DNA of 64,000 bases from the NCBI GenBank assembly GCA_951406725.2, contig OX597827.1, positions 68,138,001 through 68,202,000 of the forward strand, in the 5' to 3' direction. This DNA comes from Octopus vulgaris. Its lineage: Eukaryota. The notes beneath the pieces are model-generated. The model was not told the origin of the DNA. It made no database searches and saw nothing but the letters and a program-made list of their open reading frames with translations. Below, piece after piece: positions 5,750 through 63,070 of this stretch; positions within the stretch are counted from its first letter, which is position 1; each line of letters begins with the position of its first letter. Position numbers and translations under genes: made by a program.

Positions 5750-6135
5750 CTCTTTACACTCTTACTTGTTTCAGTCATTTGACTGTGGCCATGCTGGAAC
5801 ACCGCCTTTCGTCGAGCAAATCGACCCCCAGGACTTACTCTTTGTAAGCCTAGTACTTATTCTAACGGTCTCTTTTGCCAAACTGCTAATTTACGGGGAC
5901 GTAAACACACCAACATCAGTTGTCAAGCGATGTTGGGGGACAAACACAGACACACACATATATATATATATATATGATGGGCTTCTTTCAGTTTCCGACT
6001 ACCAAATCCACTCACAAGGTTTTGGTTGGCCCGAGGCTATAGTAGAAGACACTTGCCCAAGGTGTCACGCTGTGGGACTGAACCCGGAACCATGTGGTTC
6101 GTAAGCAAGCTACTTACCACACAGCCACTCCTACT
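5750..6135 (-). mobile_element. Full-length OK-like SINE
   Basis: Reverse complement of 36540-36955; tRNA-like head at the right end, (AAAGAGT)-type tail at the left end. Confidence 0.85.
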
Positions 6136-11221: not shown

Positions 11222-11790
11222 TGGCAGAGAGCTGGCAGAATCGCCGGGCGAAATGCTTAGCGGTATTTCGTCTGCCGCTACGTTCTGAGTTCAAATTCCG
11301 TCGAGGTCGACTTTGTCTTTCATCCTTTCGGGGTCGATTAAATAAGTACCAGTTACGCACTGGGGTCGATGTAATCGACTTAATCCGTTTGTCTGTCCTT
11401 GTTTGTCCTCACTGTGTTTAGCCCCTTGTGGGTAGTAAAGAAATAGGTATTTCGCCTGCCGCTACGTTCTGAGGTCAGATTCCACCGTGGTCGACTTTAC
11501 CTTTCATCCTTTCGGGGGTCGATTAAATAAGTACCAGTTACGCACTGGTGTCGATATAATCGACTTAATCCGTTTCTGTCCTTGTTTGTCTTCTCTGTGT
11601 TTAGCCCCTTGTGGGTAGTAAAGAAATAGGTATTTCGTGTGTCTTTACGTTCTGAGTTCAAATTCCGCCGAGGTTGACTTTGCCTTTCATCCTTTCGGGA
11701 TCGATTAAATAATATACCAGTTGCGTACTAGGGTCGATCTAATCGACTGGTCCTCCCCCCAAAATTCGTGCCTTCTGCCTAGAAAAGAAT
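11222..11790 (+). mobile_element. Trimeric Meta-domain-like SINE: head + (body-tailX)x2 + body-tailY
   Basis: About 182-bp units joined at aaagaaata|ggtatttc. Confidence 0.85.
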
Positions 11791-17685: not shown

Positions 17686-18234
17686 GTCGACTTTGCCTTT
17701 CATCATTTCAGGGTCGATTAAATAAGTACCAGTTACGCACTGGGGTCGATGTAATCGACTTAATCCGTTTGTCTGTCCTTGTTTGTACCCTCTGTGTTTA
17801 GCCCCTTGAGGGTTGTAAAGAAGTTGACTTTGCCTTTCATCATTTCAGGGTCGATTAAATAAGTACTAGTTACGCACTGGGGTCGATGTAATCGACTTAA
17901 TCCGTTTGTCTGTCCTTGTTTGTCCCCTCTGTGTTTAGCCCCTTGAGGGTTGTAAAGAAGTCGACTTTTGCCTTTCATCATTTCAGGGTCGATTAAATAA
18001 GTACCAGTTACGCACTGGGGTCGATGTAATCGACTTAATCCGTTTGTCTGTCCTTGTTTGTCCCCTCTGTGTTTAGCCCCTTGAGGGTTGTAAAGAAGTC
18101 GACTTTGCCTTTCATCATTTCAGGGTCGATTAAATAAGTACCAGTTACGCACTGGGGTCGATGTAATCGACTTAATCCGTTTGTCTGTCCTTGTTTGTCC
18201 CCTCTGTGTTTAGCCCCTTGAGGGTTGTAAAGAA
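17686..18234 (+). repeat. Tandem array of four 137-bp internal fragments of the Meta-domain-like SINE
   Basis: Units start at 17686, 17823, 17960 and 18098; all share private variants (catcatttcaggg, ttgagggttg). Confidence 0.95.
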
Positions 18235-41040: not shown

Positions 41041-42099
41041 TCACCACTGCTGTCGTGTTGTCTACTGTTTCTCCTTCGCCACATGACCGTCGTGTTCATT
41101 ACTCACACAACTGGCTTCATCCAACTTTACCACCCATCATCATTAATTTGATAATAGCGTTAAACACCAACTACCCCCATTACTACACAAACACTCACAT
41201 AATCTCTCTCTTCTCTTCTCTATCTCTCTTTCTCTTCGTCACCATCATTGCCATGGCGTCATCATCATCATCATCATCACCATCATCACCAACATCGTCG
41301 TTGTTCGTCGGTGTTGGGTTTGTCATTGTCTTTCTTCATCAATATGATAAAAGCCGGTTCTTTCGCTCGATGTGTCTACCAATCCCGCTGTGCTGGGCGA
41401 TGATCAAGAAGACTACTGGATTTAATGGATTAGGAATGCAGAAGTTTATTAGCCATTAGGGGGATGTCTGCCGCGACTTATTAAAAAAAAAAAAATGTCT
41501 GAATCATCGACACTGTTGTGGATTGTCTCCCCATTCTTTCACTCCTACCACCAAACACTTCAATAACAACCACCAACGCAAAAATAACCAAATCCACTAC
41601 CACCACCAACACCAGCTCATCCCTTGGTTATTTATTGGTATCAAACGGCGGATTGATGGACACAAACTCGATATTTCTTTCTATATTAATTGAAGACCAA
41701 AAACCAAAAAAAAAAAGGATATTTTTATAAGCATGTTATTATTCCGATTGAATATACGCGCAAAGCGTACAAACAACAAAGGCTAGAAGCGCTTGTGCAT
41801 GCATGCCTGCATGCATTTATATATATGTATATATATAGTAGAGAGATGGATGGGTGGTTAGATCAAGAGCCAACCTAATTTAATATTATGCACTTACACA
41901 AGTATGAGGCAAGTTTAGACACGTGTTTCTCCTCTTTGATAGAGATGTTCAATGGGTAATATAACAAGTGTCTTCTTTCTTAGTGCTTTGTCGTTCTGTT
42001 TATTTATTTATTTGTTTATTTATTTATTTGCCGATTAGATAAGAGTTAGGATATTGGTTTCAAATTTTCGCACAGGGCCAACAGGTTCGAGGGAGCGGT

Positions 42100-42990
42100 A
42101 AGGCGGGCGAGCTTGGCAGTAACGTTAGCACGCCGGGCGAAATGAAATGCTTAGCGGTATTTCGTCTGCCGTTACGTTGTGAGTTCAAATTCCGCCGAGG
42201 TCGACTTTGCCTTTGCATCCTTTCGGGGGTCGATAAATTAAGTACCAGTTACGCACTGGTGTCGATGTAATCGACTTAATACCTATGTATGTCTTTGTTT
42301 GTCCCCTCTATGTTCAGCCCCTTGTGGGTAATAAAGAAATAGGTAAGGCGGCGAGCTGGCAGAAACGTTAGCACGGCGGGCGAAATGCTTAGCGGTATTT
42401 CGTCTGCCGTTACGTTGTGAGTTCAAATTCCGCCCAGGTCGACTTTGCCTTTCATCCTTTCGGGGTCGATAAATTAAGTACCAGTTTTGCACTGGTGTCG
42501 ATCTAATCGACTTAATACCTATGTCTGTCTTTGTTTGTCCCCTCTATGTTTAGCCCCTTGTGGGCAATAAAGAAATAGGTATTTCGTCTGCCGTTACGTT
42601 GTGAGTTCAAATTCTGCCCAGGTCGACTTTGCCTTTCATCCTTTCGGGGGTCGATAAATTAAGTACCAGTTACGCACTGGTGTCGATATAATCGACTTAA
42701 TACCTATGTCTGTCCTTGTTTGTCCCCTCTGTGTTTAGCCCCTTGTGGGTAATAAAGAAATAGGTAAGGCGGCGAGCTGGCAGAAACGTTAGCACGGCGG
42801 GCGAAATGCCTAGCGGTATTTCGTCTGCCGTTACGTTGTGAGTTCATATTCCGCCCAGGTCGACTTTGTCTTTCATCCTTTCGGGGTCGATAAATTAAGT
42901 ATCAGTTACGCACTGGGGTTGATCTAATCGACTTAATACCTATGTCTGTCCCCTCTATGTTTAGCCCCTTGTGGGTAATAAAGAAATAGG
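42100..42990 (+). mobile_element. Tetrameric Meta-domain-like SINE array nested in an antisense copy of the same family (42060-43130)
   Basis: Units head-body-X, head-body-X, body-X, head-body-X; host halves continue on both sides. Confidence 0.85.
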
Positions 42991-43264
42991 TTTAAGCCGA
43001 TTACATTGACCCCCTCCCCTATCCCTTTCTAGTGCTCAGTTAGTACTTATTTTCTTCGACCCCCGAAAGGATGAAAGGCAAAGTCTACCTTGACGGAATT
43101 TTAACTCAGAATGTAAAGACAGACGAAATGAAATGAGCAACAAGAAACGAAGTATTTCGCTCAATGGACACAATGGACCGCCCGGTCCGGAATTCGAAAC
43201 GGTGATCCAGCGATCGTGAGTGCAACACCCTCACCACTAGGCCACGTGCCTTCACCTAAATTAA

Positions 43265-47049: not shown

Positions 47050-47460
47050 AGAGCTGGCAGAATCGTTAGCACGTTGGGCGAAATGCGTAGCGGTATTTCG
47101 TCTGCCGTTACGTTCTGAGTTCAAATTCCGCCGAAGTCGACTTTGCCTTTCATCCTTTCGGGGTCGATAAATTAAGTACCAGTTACGCATTGGGGTCGAT
47201 GTAATCGACTTAATCTGTTTGTCTGTCCTTGTTTGTCCTCTCTCTGTTTAGCCCCTTGTGGGTAGTAAAGAAATAGGTATTTCGCCCGTCGCTGCGTTCT
47301 GAGTTCAAATTCCGCCGAGGTCGACTTTGCCTTTCATCCTTTCGGGGTCGATTAAATAAGTACTAGTTACGCACTGGCGTCGATATAATCGACTTAATTC
47401 CTTTGTCTGTCCTTGTTTGTCCCCTCTATGTTTAGCCCCCCGCCCCCAGTGGGCAATATA
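47050..47460 (+). mobile_element. Dimeric Meta-domain-like SINE
   Basis: Junction aaagaaata|ggtatttc at about 47275. Confidence 0.85.
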
Positions 47461-49575: not shown

Positions 49576-49739
49576 AATACATGTATATATAATCTTCAGT
49601 CACCAAGGGTGTTTTGAGATGACAATGCTGTTCTTACACCTTCTTTCACCTAAAGCGAAAGATATTCCCTCTTTAGTAACCCGTAGCGAAATAGCCTCTA
49701 CAAGTTGAAATACATCCCAAACGTATTTGAACTGACCTA

Positions 49740-51009
49740 TCATCATCATCATTGTTCGACCGTGATCGAGACGATGGAATTTACTATGTTACGCCAGACT
49801 TCACGGTCCATCATAGCATTACGGAGGTCCTGTTGCTGGATGCCTGTATCCCTGGAGATTACATCAGGGTAGGAGAGTGTGCGCCCTCTGGCATTGCGAG
49901 TAGATGGCTTCCAGAGGAGAAGAGTAGAAATTACTTCTTTTTCAGCTCTACAACAATGTCCAGCAAACTGGACTCTCCTACCTTTCACAAGAGATGACAC
50001 AGGTGGTAGTTTCCCATATATTTGCATTTTGGTTGGATGGCGCTTCCACGAGAGGTTTTGAGCTCTCATAAGGAGGCGAGTATAGGTTCCATCCAACCGC
50101 CTCTCGAAGAGTGTGCGCCCTCTGGTATCGCGAGCAGATGGCTTCCAGAGGAGAAGAGTAGAAATTACTTCTTTTTCAGCTCTACAACAATGTCCAGCAA
50201 ACTGGACTCTCCTACCTTTCACAAGAGATGACACAGGTGGTAGTTCCCCATATATTTGCATTTTTGTTGGATGGCGCTTCCATGAGAGGTTTTGAGCTCT
50301 CATAAGGAGGCGAGTATAGGTTCCATCCAACCGCCTCTCGAAGAGTGTGCGCCCTCTGGTATCGCGAGCAGATGGCTTCCAGAGGAGAAGAGTAGAAATT
50401 ACTTCTTTTTCAGCTCTACAACAATGTCCAGCAAACTGGACTCTCCTACCTTTCACAAGAGATGACACAGGTGGTAGTTCCCCATATATTTGCATTTTGG
50501 TTGGATGGCGCTTCCACGAGAGGTTTTGAGCTCTCATAAGGAGACGAGTATAGGTTCCATCCAACCGCCTCTCGAAGAGTGTGCGCCCTCTGGTATCGCG
50601 AGCAGATGGCTTCCAGAGGAGAAGAGTAGAAATTACTTCTTTTTCAGCTCTACAACAATGTCCAGCAAACTGGACTCTCCTACCTTTCACAAGAGATGAC
50701 ACAGGTGGTAGTTCCCCATATATTTGCATTTTGGTTGGATGGCGCTTCCACGAGAGGTTTTGAGCTCTCATAAGGAGGCGAGTATAGGTTCCATCCAACC
50801 GCCTCTCGAAGAGTGTGCGCCCTCTGGTATCGCGAGCAGATGGCTTCCAGAGGAGAAGAGTAGAAATTACTTCTTTTTCAGCTCTACAACAATGTCCAGC
50901 AAAATGGACTCTCCTACCTTTCACAAGAGATGACACAGGTGGTAGTTCCCCATATATTTGCATTTTTGTTGGATGGCGCTTCCACGAGAGGTTTTGAGCT
51001 CTCATAAGA
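49740..51009 (-). mobile_element. 5'-truncated RTE/RTE-X-clade LINE with about 4.85 tandem in-frame copies of a 234-bp segment (418-aa open frame 49749-51005)
   Basis: RRLDGTYTRLLMRAQNLSWKRH...RRVQFAGHCCR...AMMDREVWR is a typical RTE-type ORF C-terminus; (TGA)n tail; 11-bp TSD gaactgaccta at 49729-49739 and 51010-51020; units start at 49875, 50109, 50343, 50577 and 50811. Confidence 0.92.
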
Positions 51010-51728
51010 GAACTGACCTAAAGCTTGTCTATTTTCATCACTGCTTCGCGCAACAACTTCTGTATGTACGAATGTATAATTCTATGTATGTTTGTACGTA
51101 TTGTATACGATTGTATACAATACGTACAAATACGTCATAAAAGAACGAATATATACGTGTGTTTGTTTATGCCTGTATATGTTTTGTGTATGTTTACATT
51201 GGCGTGTGTTTGTTGTATTCATGTCGTGGTTTTTTAGCTTTTTATGTTTCTTTGTTTTGTTTTCATCGACAAGCATAACTCGGTTCTATTAACTGTAAAT
51301 AATCACCATGAGACAACAATGATTTTTTTTTTTTTCAACTTATTGGCTTGCTGGGCTGGCTGGCCATGAAAAAAAAAAACAGACTAAAAAAAATAAACAA
51401 AATGCCGTATCAGGAGTCAGGCCAATACAAACAACAACAACAACAACACCAACAACAAAAGCAATAATGTAAGACATCAAATTTCTCAATGACGTAATTT
51501 AAGAAACCTTTATTTCCAGAGCGTCGGAGTCATACATTACAAGATAGCTGCTGAGTCGTGACTGAAAGAAACACACACACACACACATACATACATATAC
51601 GTACGCACGAACACACACAGACACACACACTTATACGCGCACACAATCACCTTTTATTGACTTTGGATGGATTGCATTCAGTCCAAAAACACTCGGGCAT
51701 ACTCTCCCCCATTTCTCTCCCTACCTTC

Positions 51729-62204: not shown

Positions 62205-63070
62205 GCTAGCTGGCAGAAGCGTTAGCGCACCGGTCAAAATGCTTAGAAGCATTTCTTCCGGTTTTACGTTCTGAGTTCAAATTCTGCCGAGGACCGACTT
62301 TGTTTTTCATCCTTCCGGGGTCAGTGAAATAAATACCAGTTGAATATTTGGGTCGATATAATCGACAAGCCCCCTTCACCGAAATTTCAGACATTGTGCC
62401 TATAGTACAAAGGATTGTTATTTGAAGTACTAAAGCAGCGAGCTGGCGGAATAGTTAGCGCACACAAAGAAATGCTTAGCAGCATTTTGTCCGTCTTAAT
62501 GTTCTGAGTTCAAAATCCGCTGAGGCCGACCTAGCTTTTATCCCTTCGGAATCGATTAAATAAGTATCAGTTGAGCAGTGGTGGTCGATGTATCCCCTTC
62601 CCACTTAAAATTTCAGACCTAGTAGAAAAACTTTAAGGCGAGAAAAACTTTAGGGCGGCGAGCTGGCAGAATCGTTAGCACGCCGTGCGAAATGCGTAGC
62701 CGTTTTTCGTCTGCCGTTACGTTCTGAGTTCAAACTCCGCCGAGGTCGACTTTGCCTTTCATCCTTTCGGGGTCGATAAATTAAGTACCAGTTACGCACT
62801 GGGGTCGATATAATCGACTTAATCCGTTTGTCTGTCTTTGTTTGTTTGTTCTCTGTGTTTAGCCCCTTGTGGGTAGTAAAGAAATAGGTATTTCATCTGC
62901 CGCTACGTTCTGAGTTCAAATTCCGCCGAGGTCGACTTTGCCTTTCATCCTTTCGGGGTCGATTAAATTAGTACCAGTTACGCACTGAGGTCGATATAAT
63001 CGACTTAATCCATTTGTCTGTCCTTGTTTGTCCCCTCTGTGTGTAGCTCCTTGTGGGTAGTAAAGAAATA
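62205..63070 (+). mobile_element. Cluster of Meta-domain-like SINEs: two old monomers and a young dimer (62654-63070)
   Basis: Dimer junction gaaata|ggtatttc at about 62886; TSD-like agaaaaa(c/g)tt on both sides. Confidence 0.85.

What the first reader, a model, noticed from the sequence alone, without database searches (positions are those of the whole stretch)
49729..51020. Single LINE insertion containing about 4.85 in-frame tandem copies of a 234-bp ORF segment
Seen: one 11-bp TSD, one 3' end with a (TGA)n tail, four identical junctions (...RGRTL|FERRLDG...), a 5'-most copy truncated mid-unit, units about 98-99% identical and no stop in 418 codons. Truncation inside the repeat is what RT falling off a multimeric or circular template would leave. 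Inference: repeated template jumping, rolling-circle copying of a 234-nt LINE-derived circle, retrotransposition of a concatemeric master, or later unequal crossover. It parallels the SINE concatemers in this window and may reflect a general property of this RT machinery.
Basis: partly seen in the sequence, partly recalled or inferred. Interest (0 to 1): 0.7.

Follow-up and report, generated by a model that had tools for sequence, protein, structure and literature searches.

The report
Tandem junction spreading among LINE copies
This jumping-gene fragment holds five head-to-tail copies of one internal piece, and the same seam sits in about 50 other copies crowded on two small chromosomes; it likely spread by DNA recombination into copies already in place rather than by the jumping itself, which would make it a traceable case of repeat arrays being born.

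Summary
Observation confirmed: a minus-strand, 5'-truncated RTE-like LINE at 49740-51009, 11-bp TSD, (TGA)4 tail, about 4.85 copies of a 234-bp ORF segment, four identical junctions carrying a 2-nt insert. The junction is not private: 102 matches, 50 loci analysed, no shared flanks, own TSDs, 2-18 units. The pattern does not fit RT rolling or a retrotransposed concatemer. 32 of 50 loci lie on one 21-Mb chromosome, against 1 of 57 sampled family copies. Junction subtypes occupy Mb-scale neighbourhoods. 5' ends match ordinary monomers in LINE coordinates whatever the unit number. The two units of a dimer usually carry different subfamily alleles. Best reading (0.6): the junction arose once, is copied into resident LINE copies by proximity-biased ectopic recombination (conversion or circle reintegration), and unequal exchange then sets the number. 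A second, out-of-frame 140-bp junction (407 matches) looks similar, so the open frame is incidental. The window's 137-bp SINE array has a near-private junction, so the SINE parallel fails. Closest known: SINE-derived satellites of reptiles; Rsp-like spread in Drosophila. No orthologous monomer allele was seen, which is the missing proof. New variant of a known kind; interest 0.5.

The parts
51010..51020 (-). 5' copy of the 11-bp target-site duplication
   Evidence: the join of this flank to the LINE edge is also present in contigs of runs X2, X3 (organism A), X4 (B) and X7 (C)
50810..51009 (-). Unit 1, 5'-truncated (LINE positions 69-267)
50808..50809 (-). Junction 1: LINE position 267 joined to 36 through a 2-nt insert (TC) found in neither natural neighbour; same junction at 50574-50575, 50340-50341 and 50106-50107
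50576..50807 (-). Unit 2 (LINE 36-267); carries array-wide rare variants 59T, 86C, 129G and subfamily alleles 206A, 240G, 246G
50342..50573 (-). Unit 3 (LINE 36-267)
50108..50339 (-). Unit 4 (LINE 36-267)
49874..50105 (-). Unit 5 (LINE 36-267), continuous with the natural 3' end; lacks 129G/240G/246G, has 249G; shares 86C and 249G with the post-junction unit of L121 (C24)
49752..49873 (-). Natural end of the LINE ORF (positions 268 to the stop); haplotype 326T/352A/356A, nearest to ordinary C1 monomers (2 differences)
49740..49751 (-). (TGA)4 tail, starting at the stop codon
49729..49739 (-). 3' copy of the 11-bp target-site duplication

Best explanation
The window holds an ordinary 5'-truncated LINE insertion that likely received its 234-bp repeat junction afterwards, by DNA recombination with another junction-bearing copy, and then likely grew to five units by unequal exchange on the spot. 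Step 1 (shown): RTE-like 3' fragments inserted genome-wide, each with its own TSD and 5' end. Step 2 (inferred): one end-joining or slippage event joined position 267 to 36 with a 2-nt insert, making a first dimer. Step 3 (inferred): a break in a resident monomer is repaired on a junction-bearing copy out of register (synthesis-dependent annealing), or a unit-length DNA circle excised from an array reintegrates by homology; either way the resident keeps its TSD, 5' end and mostly its tail and gains a junction. Donors are mostly nearby, so the junction spreads regionally, with occasional jumps between chromosomes such as this C14 copy. Step 4 (inferred): once two units stand in tandem, unequal exchange or slippage gives 2-18 units. 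The array is non-coding debris in function: a nascent LINE-derived minisatellite.
For: Shared origin: same junction with the same 2-nt insert (or CpG-type decays of it) at 50 loci; variant 43A in 30 of 50 last units and 12 of 20 inner units but 2 of 29 first units and 2 of 29 monomers. Independent insertions: no shared flanks among 50 loci; TSD of 7 nt or more at 18 of 48 loci, 9 of 30 monomers, 1.6% in mismatched pairs. Confinement: C30 32, C27 8, C24 3, C26 2, C8 2, C14, C19, C25 one each, reproduced with a second pattern (97 matches), while the family is dispersed (4989 tail matches; 1 of 57 sampled loci on C30; Fisher p 2e-13; 0 of 50 against 19 of 57 on C1-C7, counted from the listings). 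Regional subtypes: the five C30 loci with 42T+44A are the five consecutive loci at 4.1-6.5 Mb (p 1.4e-4, post hoc); 4 of 5 loci with 265A lie at 9.46-9.90 Mb; junction-proximal distance follows physical distance on C30 (rho 0.40, p 0.002). Post-insertion timing: 5' ends upstream of the unit at 28 of 50 junction loci against 35 of 78 monomers (p 0.28) but 7 of 31 expected for a retrotransposed dimer (p 0.005); four intact 5-mers would need about 6/13/32/77 truncated 5/4/3/2-mers, 2/1/6/13 seen. Mosaic units: in dimers a derived subfamily allele is in both units in 25 of 97 cases; tails at junction loci are as diverse as monomer tails (4.8% against 5.7%). Background exchange: 69 junction-free C1 monomers share rare variants more within 1 Mb (ratio to chance 5.4 against 2.1 beyond 4 Mb, p 0.01). 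Weak hint of variable number at this locus: in X4 a window-type junction contig has depth 221 against 208 for the flank contig.
Against: No orthologous monomer allele with the same TSD was seen; this direct test could not be run. The contrast 'units shared locally, tails not' (p 0.001 against 0.76) weakens after correction for variant load: tail ratio 6.1 within 1 Mb on 3 shared variants (p 0.12), and unit sharing without the junction-proximal bases p 0.14. Junction subtype partly tracks the tail allele at 326 (6 of 7 TGA loci C, 4 of 5 265A loci T), as whole-element copying would give. Variant 88C was found on C30 only in junction loci, none in a C30 monomer (3 of 5 matches). With the smaller monomer sample the junction loci's 5' ends were further upstream than monomers' (p 0.037). 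Monomer controls come from C1-C14, not from C30. Local sharing among C1 monomers also fits local retrotransposition. Published Alu conversion acts within about 10 kb (PMC8230782, passage), far shorter than the Mb scale needed here. The window copy has no junction neighbour on C14. The X4 depth hint does not meet the tool's 31-letter bridging rule and depth is no copy number.
Confidence: 0.6

Rival explanations
1. A dimeric (or a few multimeric) non-autonomous master copies were retrotransposed by the RTE machinery, with a strong bias to land near the source or on small chromosomes; unequal exchange and conversion later changed unit number and mixed alleles.
For: Every locus has a normal LINE tail and TSDs as often as monomers; one junction origin; junction subtype partly linked to tail allele; rare variants are shared in first units too; local sharing among monomers would follow if this LINE hops locally.
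Against: 5' ends are not shifted by one unit as a dimeric template predicts (28 of 50 against 7 of 31, p 0.005); no truncation ladder for larger masters; tails span several subfamilies; units of a dimer disagree at 72 of 97 subfamily alleles; Mb-scale local hopping is not something I know for target-primed insertion (recalled, not searched).
Confidence: 0.22
2. One reading: at each insertion the RT rolls on a 234-nt circular RNA or jumps back repeatedly, writing the array in one go.
For: At this locus the 5' end lies inside a unit, the units are 97-99.6% alike and share three rare variants; the junction can fold as a short hairpin (CTCT/AGAG, read from the sequence), as a ligated circle might.
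Against: 28 of 50 loci return to normal upstream sequence; number of units is independent of the 5' end; 1 of 88 monomers reaches the window's 1270 nt; several arrays hold units of different subfamilies (L100, L120: 5-12 differences between neighbours); an RNA circle does not explain confinement to C30/C27 or regional subtypes.
Confidence: 0.07
3. The same duplication arises again and again, independently, at a structural hot spot in regions prone to tandem duplication.
For: Positions 36-40 and 264-268 are complementary; C30 and neighbours hold many one-off internal duplications (L162, L163, L177, L086), 0 of 69 C1 monomers do; the second junction has 3-nt microhomology.
Against: The junction has an insert and no direct microhomology; linked variants form regional clades; a fresh local duplication would give two alike units, yet 25 of 28 dimers differ by 2.6-5.9%.
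Confidence: 0.06
4. Segmental duplication of a host region, or an assembly artefact, multiplies one array.
For: Loci cluster in blocks.
Against: No two loci share flanks; TSDs and 5' ends differ; junction contigs in independent runs; no zinc-finger cluster in the flanks.
Confidence: 0.02

Closest known systems
SINE-derived satellites (sSat) of squamates (PMC10702118; abstract, sections 17-19 read)
   Same: Tandem repeats of an inner part of a retroelement, at many loci, with longer terminal units running to the element's end; variable unit number; a few variants dominate.
   Different: Here the parent is an RTE-like LINE ORF end; both element ends and TSDs are usually kept; loci sit in interior blocks of small chromosomes rather than clearly subtelomeric; the sections read invoke unequal recombination and do not test how one junction reaches many loci.
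Rsp-like satellite spreading into 1.688 clusters in Drosophila (PMC7403614; passages read)
   Same: One junction shared by many clusters, seeded into a pre-existing abundant repeat, by interlocus conversion or circle reintegration, then expanded by unequal exchange. This is what the finding works like.
   Different: There a foreign satellite enters another satellite; here a rearranged piece of a LINE enters single dispersed copies of the same LINE, each tagged by its own TSD and 5' end.
Non-allelic gene conversion among Alu copies (PMC8230782; passages read)
   Same: Neighbouring copies exchange sequence, more so when close.
   Different: Reported range about 10 kb and point variants; here Mb scale and a structural junction that lengthens the recipient.
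CRM1TR/CRM4TR tandem repeats from maize centromeric retrotransposons (PMC3648361; abstract read)
   Same: Retrotransposon-derived arrays growing by conversion.
   Different: LTR elements, two loci, and little or no movement between loci 1.4 Mb apart; here movement between loci is the main feature.
RTE-clade LINEs (PMC2887409; passages read)
   Same: Parent copy L181: about 3.25 kb, endonuclease and RT, very short simple-repeat 3' end, 10-bp TSD, mostly 3' fragments.
   Different: Internal arrays were not mentioned in the passages read. It is not RTE-2_OV as described (600-nt 3' UTR; PMC9115989, passages).

Membership tests
RTE-clade LINE (parent) | One ORF with AP endonuclease and RT, no ORF1 | tested here: met
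   L181: Exo_endo_phos E 3e-7 and RVT_1 E 5e-32 in two overlapping frames split by one frameshift, about 105 nt from the 5' TSD to the first ATG
RTE-clade LINE (parent) | Very short 3' UTR of simple repeats | tested here: met
   (TGA)n starts at the stop codon
RTE-clade LINE (parent) | TSD of about 6-12 bp, mostly 3' fragments | tested here: met
   11 bp here, 10 bp at L181; median monomer length 310 nt, n 88
RTE-clade LINE (parent) | RT tree places it in the RTE clade | not tested
Hence 'RTE-like'.
Retroelement-derived satellite, sSat type | Tandem units of an inner segment with longer terminal units, same unit at many loci | tested here: met
   50 loci
Retroelement-derived satellite, sSat type | Parent is a SINE | tested here: not met
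   Parent is a LINE with RT; so it is not filed as an sSat, only as working like one
Retroelement-derived satellite, sSat type | Subtelomeric location | tested here: inconclusive
   C30 4.1-17.6 of 21.2 Mb, C27 30-35 of 40.2, C24 31-34 of 48.2, C14 68.2 of 84.7: interior blocks; telomere positions not checked
Retroelement-derived satellite, sSat type | Unit number varies between orthologous loci | tested here: inconclusive
   Only a depth hint in X4
Rsp-like-type spread | One junction shared by many clusters | tested here: met
Rsp-like-type spread | Entry into a repeat that was there before | tested here: inconclusive
   Indirect support from 5' ends and mosaic units; no orthologous monomer seen
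Rsp-like-type spread | Enrichment on extrachromosomal circles | not testable with these tools
   needs circle sequencing
Retrotransposed multimeric master (dimeric SINE or VNTR-composite type) | Copies dispersed like other insertions of the driver LINE | tested here: not met
   32 of 50 on C30 against 1 of 57
Retrotransposed multimeric master (dimeric SINE or VNTR-composite type) | Truncation measured from the 3' end of the multimer | tested here: not met

The most novel reading that the evidence does not exclude
A repeat junction behaves as a self-spreading allele inside a dispersed LINE family: it is copied, with gain of length, into resident copies across megabase neighbourhoods and between small chromosomes, turning thousands of inert LINE fragments into seeds of satellite arrays without transposition. 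At least two such junctions (234 and 140 bp) compete and combine in this family, and their regional clades map the range of ectopic recombination in the germline.
Probability: 0.4. Interest if true: 0.7.

Novelty: new variant of a known kind. Interest (0 to 1): 0.5.

Why it matters
How a first tandem duplication reaches many loci (transposition, circles or conversion) is an open point in satellite DNA evolution, because recipients usually carry no record of their earlier state. Here every recipient is tagged by its own TSD, 5' end and subfamily alleles, so a comparison of orthologous loci can decide the matter directly, and the junction subtypes trace the reach of ectopic recombination (Mb here, about 10 kb reported for Alu). 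It also warns that long open frames and mid-unit 5' ends in such arrays are no evidence of RT rolling or of a coded protein, and that dating these LINE copies by divergence is distorted by exchange.

Tried and rejected
Fixed 5' end / SINE-like master: three loci began near position 0, but 29 monomers and the other loci end at many positions, and monomers also pile near 0. Host gene cluster as cause of clustering: no zinc-finger linker in 262 kb of flanks or in the window; other clusters not tested. Protein function: unit plus tail has no Pfam match; 25 of 39 arrays broken, 11 not assessable. SINE parallel: junction of the 137-bp array at 17686-18234 has 4 matches, 3 in the array; the other SINE arrays were not searched. 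Tail-versus-unit contrast: strong, not robust, so kept only as weak. The second Fisher test printed was mis-specified (C8 loci overlooked) and is not used. L090 was counted as a dimer and is a trimer. L058 was dropped from SNP tables (no unit), L107 and L110 from the Mantel tests and TSD count (no tail); two of 102 matches were not listed and one more locus (C30 12.317 Mb) was not analysed. Expression: no RNA holder listed; no evidence either way. Unit number in other samples: contigs cannot span the array; X3 and X7 listed no junction-spanning piece among the top rows, which proves nothing. Run X1 was left out as a possible source. Earlier scan notes: none by sequence or words; eight by place concern other elements.

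Full report
1. Observation. The element lies on the minus strand at 49740-51009 between two copies of GAACTGACCTA (49729-49739, 51010-51020). It reads, 5' to 3': a partial unit, three full 234-bp units, a last unit that runs into the natural ORF end, and (TGA)4. The four junctions are identical. Adjacent units differ at 2, 1, 3 and 6 sites. The frame is open for 418 codons from the first Met.

2. Parent. Using a real long copy (L066) as ruler, with position 0 at the motif, the unit is positions 36-267 and the junction joins 267 to 36 through two bases (TC) present in neither natural neighbour. L066 has an RVT_1 domain (E 3e-30). Copy L181 is about 3.25 kb between 10-bp TSDs, with AP endonuclease and RT in two frames split by one frameshift, a short 5' leader and the (TGA)n tail at the stop. 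These are the RTE features listed in PMC2887409 (passages read); no tree was built, so I write RTE-like. The family is large and dispersed: 4989 exact matches of a tail 21-mer, 2221 of an upstream 18-mer; monomers have a median length of 310 nt, and 1 of 88 reaches 1270 nt. The host is likely an octopod; that label is recalled from its SINEs and comes from no call.

3. The junction is a family trait. The exact 20-mer has 16 matches at 7 loci; a 28-mer with up to 3 mismatches has 102 (100 listed), which group into 50 loci; reversed controls give 0. A second pattern gave 97 matches on the same chromosomes and one more locus. I fetched all 50. Unit numbers: 2 at 30 loci, 3 at 10, 4 at 3, 5 at 6, 18 at 1. 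No two share flanks. TSDs of 7 nt or more are found at 18 of 48, against 9 of 30 monomers and 1.6% of mismatched pairs. So these are separate insertions.

4. The distribution does not fit an RNA intermediate. 32 of 50 loci are on C30 (21 Mb), 8 on C27 (30-35 Mb), none on C1-C7. A sample of family copies drawn by a rare tail variant has 1 of 57 loci on C30 and 19 on C1-C7 (Fisher p 2e-13 for C30). Variants next to the junction form regional groups: 43A follows the junction in 30 of 50 last units but is in 2 of 29 first units and 2 of 29 monomers; the five C30 loci with 42T+44A are the five consecutive loci at 4.1-6.5 Mb (two more on C26; p 1.4e-4 post hoc); 4 of 5 loci with 265A lie within 0.45 Mb. 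On C30, sequence distance in positions 36-70 follows physical distance (rho 0.40, p 0.002), the tail does not (rho 0.09, p 0.13), nor does 233-267. One of four junction-free matches with 42T+44A is a fragment at C30 3.73 Mb, beside that cluster.

5. Timing. If junction-bearing RNA were reverse-transcribed, truncation would count from the 3' end of the multimer. Instead the 5' ends lie where monomer ends lie in LINE coordinates: upstream of the unit at 28 of 50 loci against 35 of 78 monomers (p 0.28), while a dimeric template predicts 7 of 31 (p 0.005). Unit number is unrelated to the 5' end (rho -0.06). Monomers pass the unit 35 times in 84; four intact 5-mers would then come with about 6, 13, 32 and 77 copies cut in the fifth, fourth, third and second unit; 2, 1, 6 and 13 exist. 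With a smaller control the junction loci looked slightly longer than monomers (p 0.037). The control monomers are from C1-C14, not C30, which is the main caveat.

6. Mosaic units. The family has about 13 subfamily SNPs, and junction loci carry all of them. In dimers a derived allele is in both units 25 times of 97; 25 of 28 dimers differ by 2.6-5.9% between units; tails at junction loci differ by 4.8%, monomer tails by 5.7%. A uniform master or a fresh local duplication gives neither. In the window, the tail is nearest to ordinary C1 monomers (2 differences), whereas the junction type (43G) and 86C are shared with L121 on C24. Units 1-4 share 129G, 240G and 246G against unit 5, as expected if inner units were multiplied locally.

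7. Local exchange. Rare variants are shared more by close loci: 0.35 per pair within 1 Mb, 0.19 at 1-4 Mb, 0.11 beyond, 0.065 across chromosomes (p 0.001). After correction for variant load, within C30, units give a ratio to chance of 11.7 within 1 Mb against 3.9 beyond 4 Mb (p 0.016); without the junction-proximal bases p is 0.14; tails give 6.1 against 3.4 on 3 shared variants (p 0.12). So 'tails stay resident' is not established. 69 junction-free C1 monomers also share locally (5.4 against 2.1, p 0.01): exchange or local descent is a general trait of the family. Against my reading, variant 88C turned up on C30 only in junction loci (3 of 5 matches).

8. A second junction. Position 384 joins 242 through 3-nt microhomology, a 140-bp unit, out of frame. 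It has 407 matches; the 100 listed exact ones are on C14, C16, C19, C20 and C27-C29, with arrays of 15 and more units; five loci hold both junctions or both kinds of copy side by side (L084, L097, L106, L111, L123). Of 14 sampled loci, 13 extend upstream of the unit (L170 is complex). Its distribution beyond the listing was not seen. The window's 137-bp SINE array, by contrast, has a near-private junction.

9. Other samples. The join of the 5' flank to the LINE is in contigs of X2, X3 (organism A), X4 (B) and X7 (C), so the insertion is older than these samples' separation. Junction-spanning contigs are listed in X2 (2 differences, depth 696 against 37 for the flank) and X4 (0 differences, depth 221 against 208). 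The X4 contig has the window's own 43G+59T type at flank depth, a weak hint of one junction there instead of four; it is 53 nt long, below the tool's bridging rule.

10. Mechanism. Shown: independent insertions, one junction type, regional confinement and subtypes, monomer-like 5' ends, mosaic units. Inferred: single origin of the junction; transfer into resident copies by out-of-register repair or by reintegration of DNA circles (these two cannot be told apart here); local growth by unequal exchange. Confidence 0.6; locally biased retrotransposition of a dimer 0.22; RT rolling or jumping 0.07; recurrent duplication 0.06; duplication of the region or artefact 0.02.

11. Literature. Seen: PMC10702118 (abstract, sections 17-19), PMC7403614, PMC2887409, PMC8230782, PMC12628747, PMC9115989 (passages), PMC13282606 (parts 1-2 of 3), PMC3648361 (abstract). 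No supplements were read; those of PMC10702118 and PMC13282606 may hold closer cases or this family. Retroelement-derived arrays and junction-seeded spread are known; it works like the Rsp-like case and looks like an sSat, but is a member of neither. Nine searches showed no report of this family's arrays or of a junction spreading through dispersed LINE copies; the library lacks most subscription journals, so this is not proof of novelty.

12. Verdict.

Noticed in passing
G000 C27 30.9, 31.98, 35.0 Mb; C16, C19, C20, C28, C29, C31 (L166-L179, L084): Second shared junction of the same LINE (384 to 242, 140-bp unit), 407 matches, arrays of 15 and more units: a more advanced LINE-derived minisatellite.
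   Followed up: partly
L077 (G000 C27 30.195-30.199 Mb): 18-unit array of the 234-bp unit with blocks of identical neighbours and a repeated sub-pattern, as expected from unequal exchange.
   Followed up: partly
L162, L163 (C30), L177 (C20), L086 (C27), L155 (C14): One-off internal or whole duplications of LINE copies; both C30 copies picked only as family members had one, none of 69 C1 monomers did. Small chromosomes may be prone to tandem duplication.
   Followed up: no
L047-L076, L182-L221 (C1 0.4-48 Mb): Junction-free monomers share rare variants with neighbours within 1 Mb (p 0.01) and show all four allele combinations at subfamily SNPs: the family recombines.
   Followed up: partly
L181:2940-2950 and about 6043-6053: An 11-nt stretch at the start codon of the full-length LINE is the reverse complement of one near its 3' end; possible pairing of the RNA's ends.
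   Followed up: no
LINE positions 215-222 and the junction: The junction's left side plus insert (ACTCTTC) also occurs inside the unit, so the 2-nt insert may be templated, as in polymerase-theta joining (recalled); the junction can also form a 4-bp hairpin.
   Followed up: no
LINE position about 0 (L100, L103, L110, L120, L122, L124; monomers L126, L128, L142, L145): 5' ends pile up within 15 nt of position 0 in arrays and monomers alike: a truncation hot spot.
   Followed up: partly
window 17686-18234: SINE internal array, 137 bp x 4, 98% alike; its junction is nearly private to this locus.
   Followed up: yes
window 11262-11748, 42097-42991, 47092-47439, 62705-63070: Head-to-tail SINE multimers with periods of 183-186 and 236 bp; junctions not searched.
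   Followed up: no
L107 (C30 13.45 Mb) and C25 31.896 Mb: A junction copy ending in a short inversion, and an inverted pair of tail matches 300 bp apart.
   Followed up: no
flanks of L077-L125: Junction loci lie in DNA of 41% G+C against 38% around control copies (element included).
   Followed up: no
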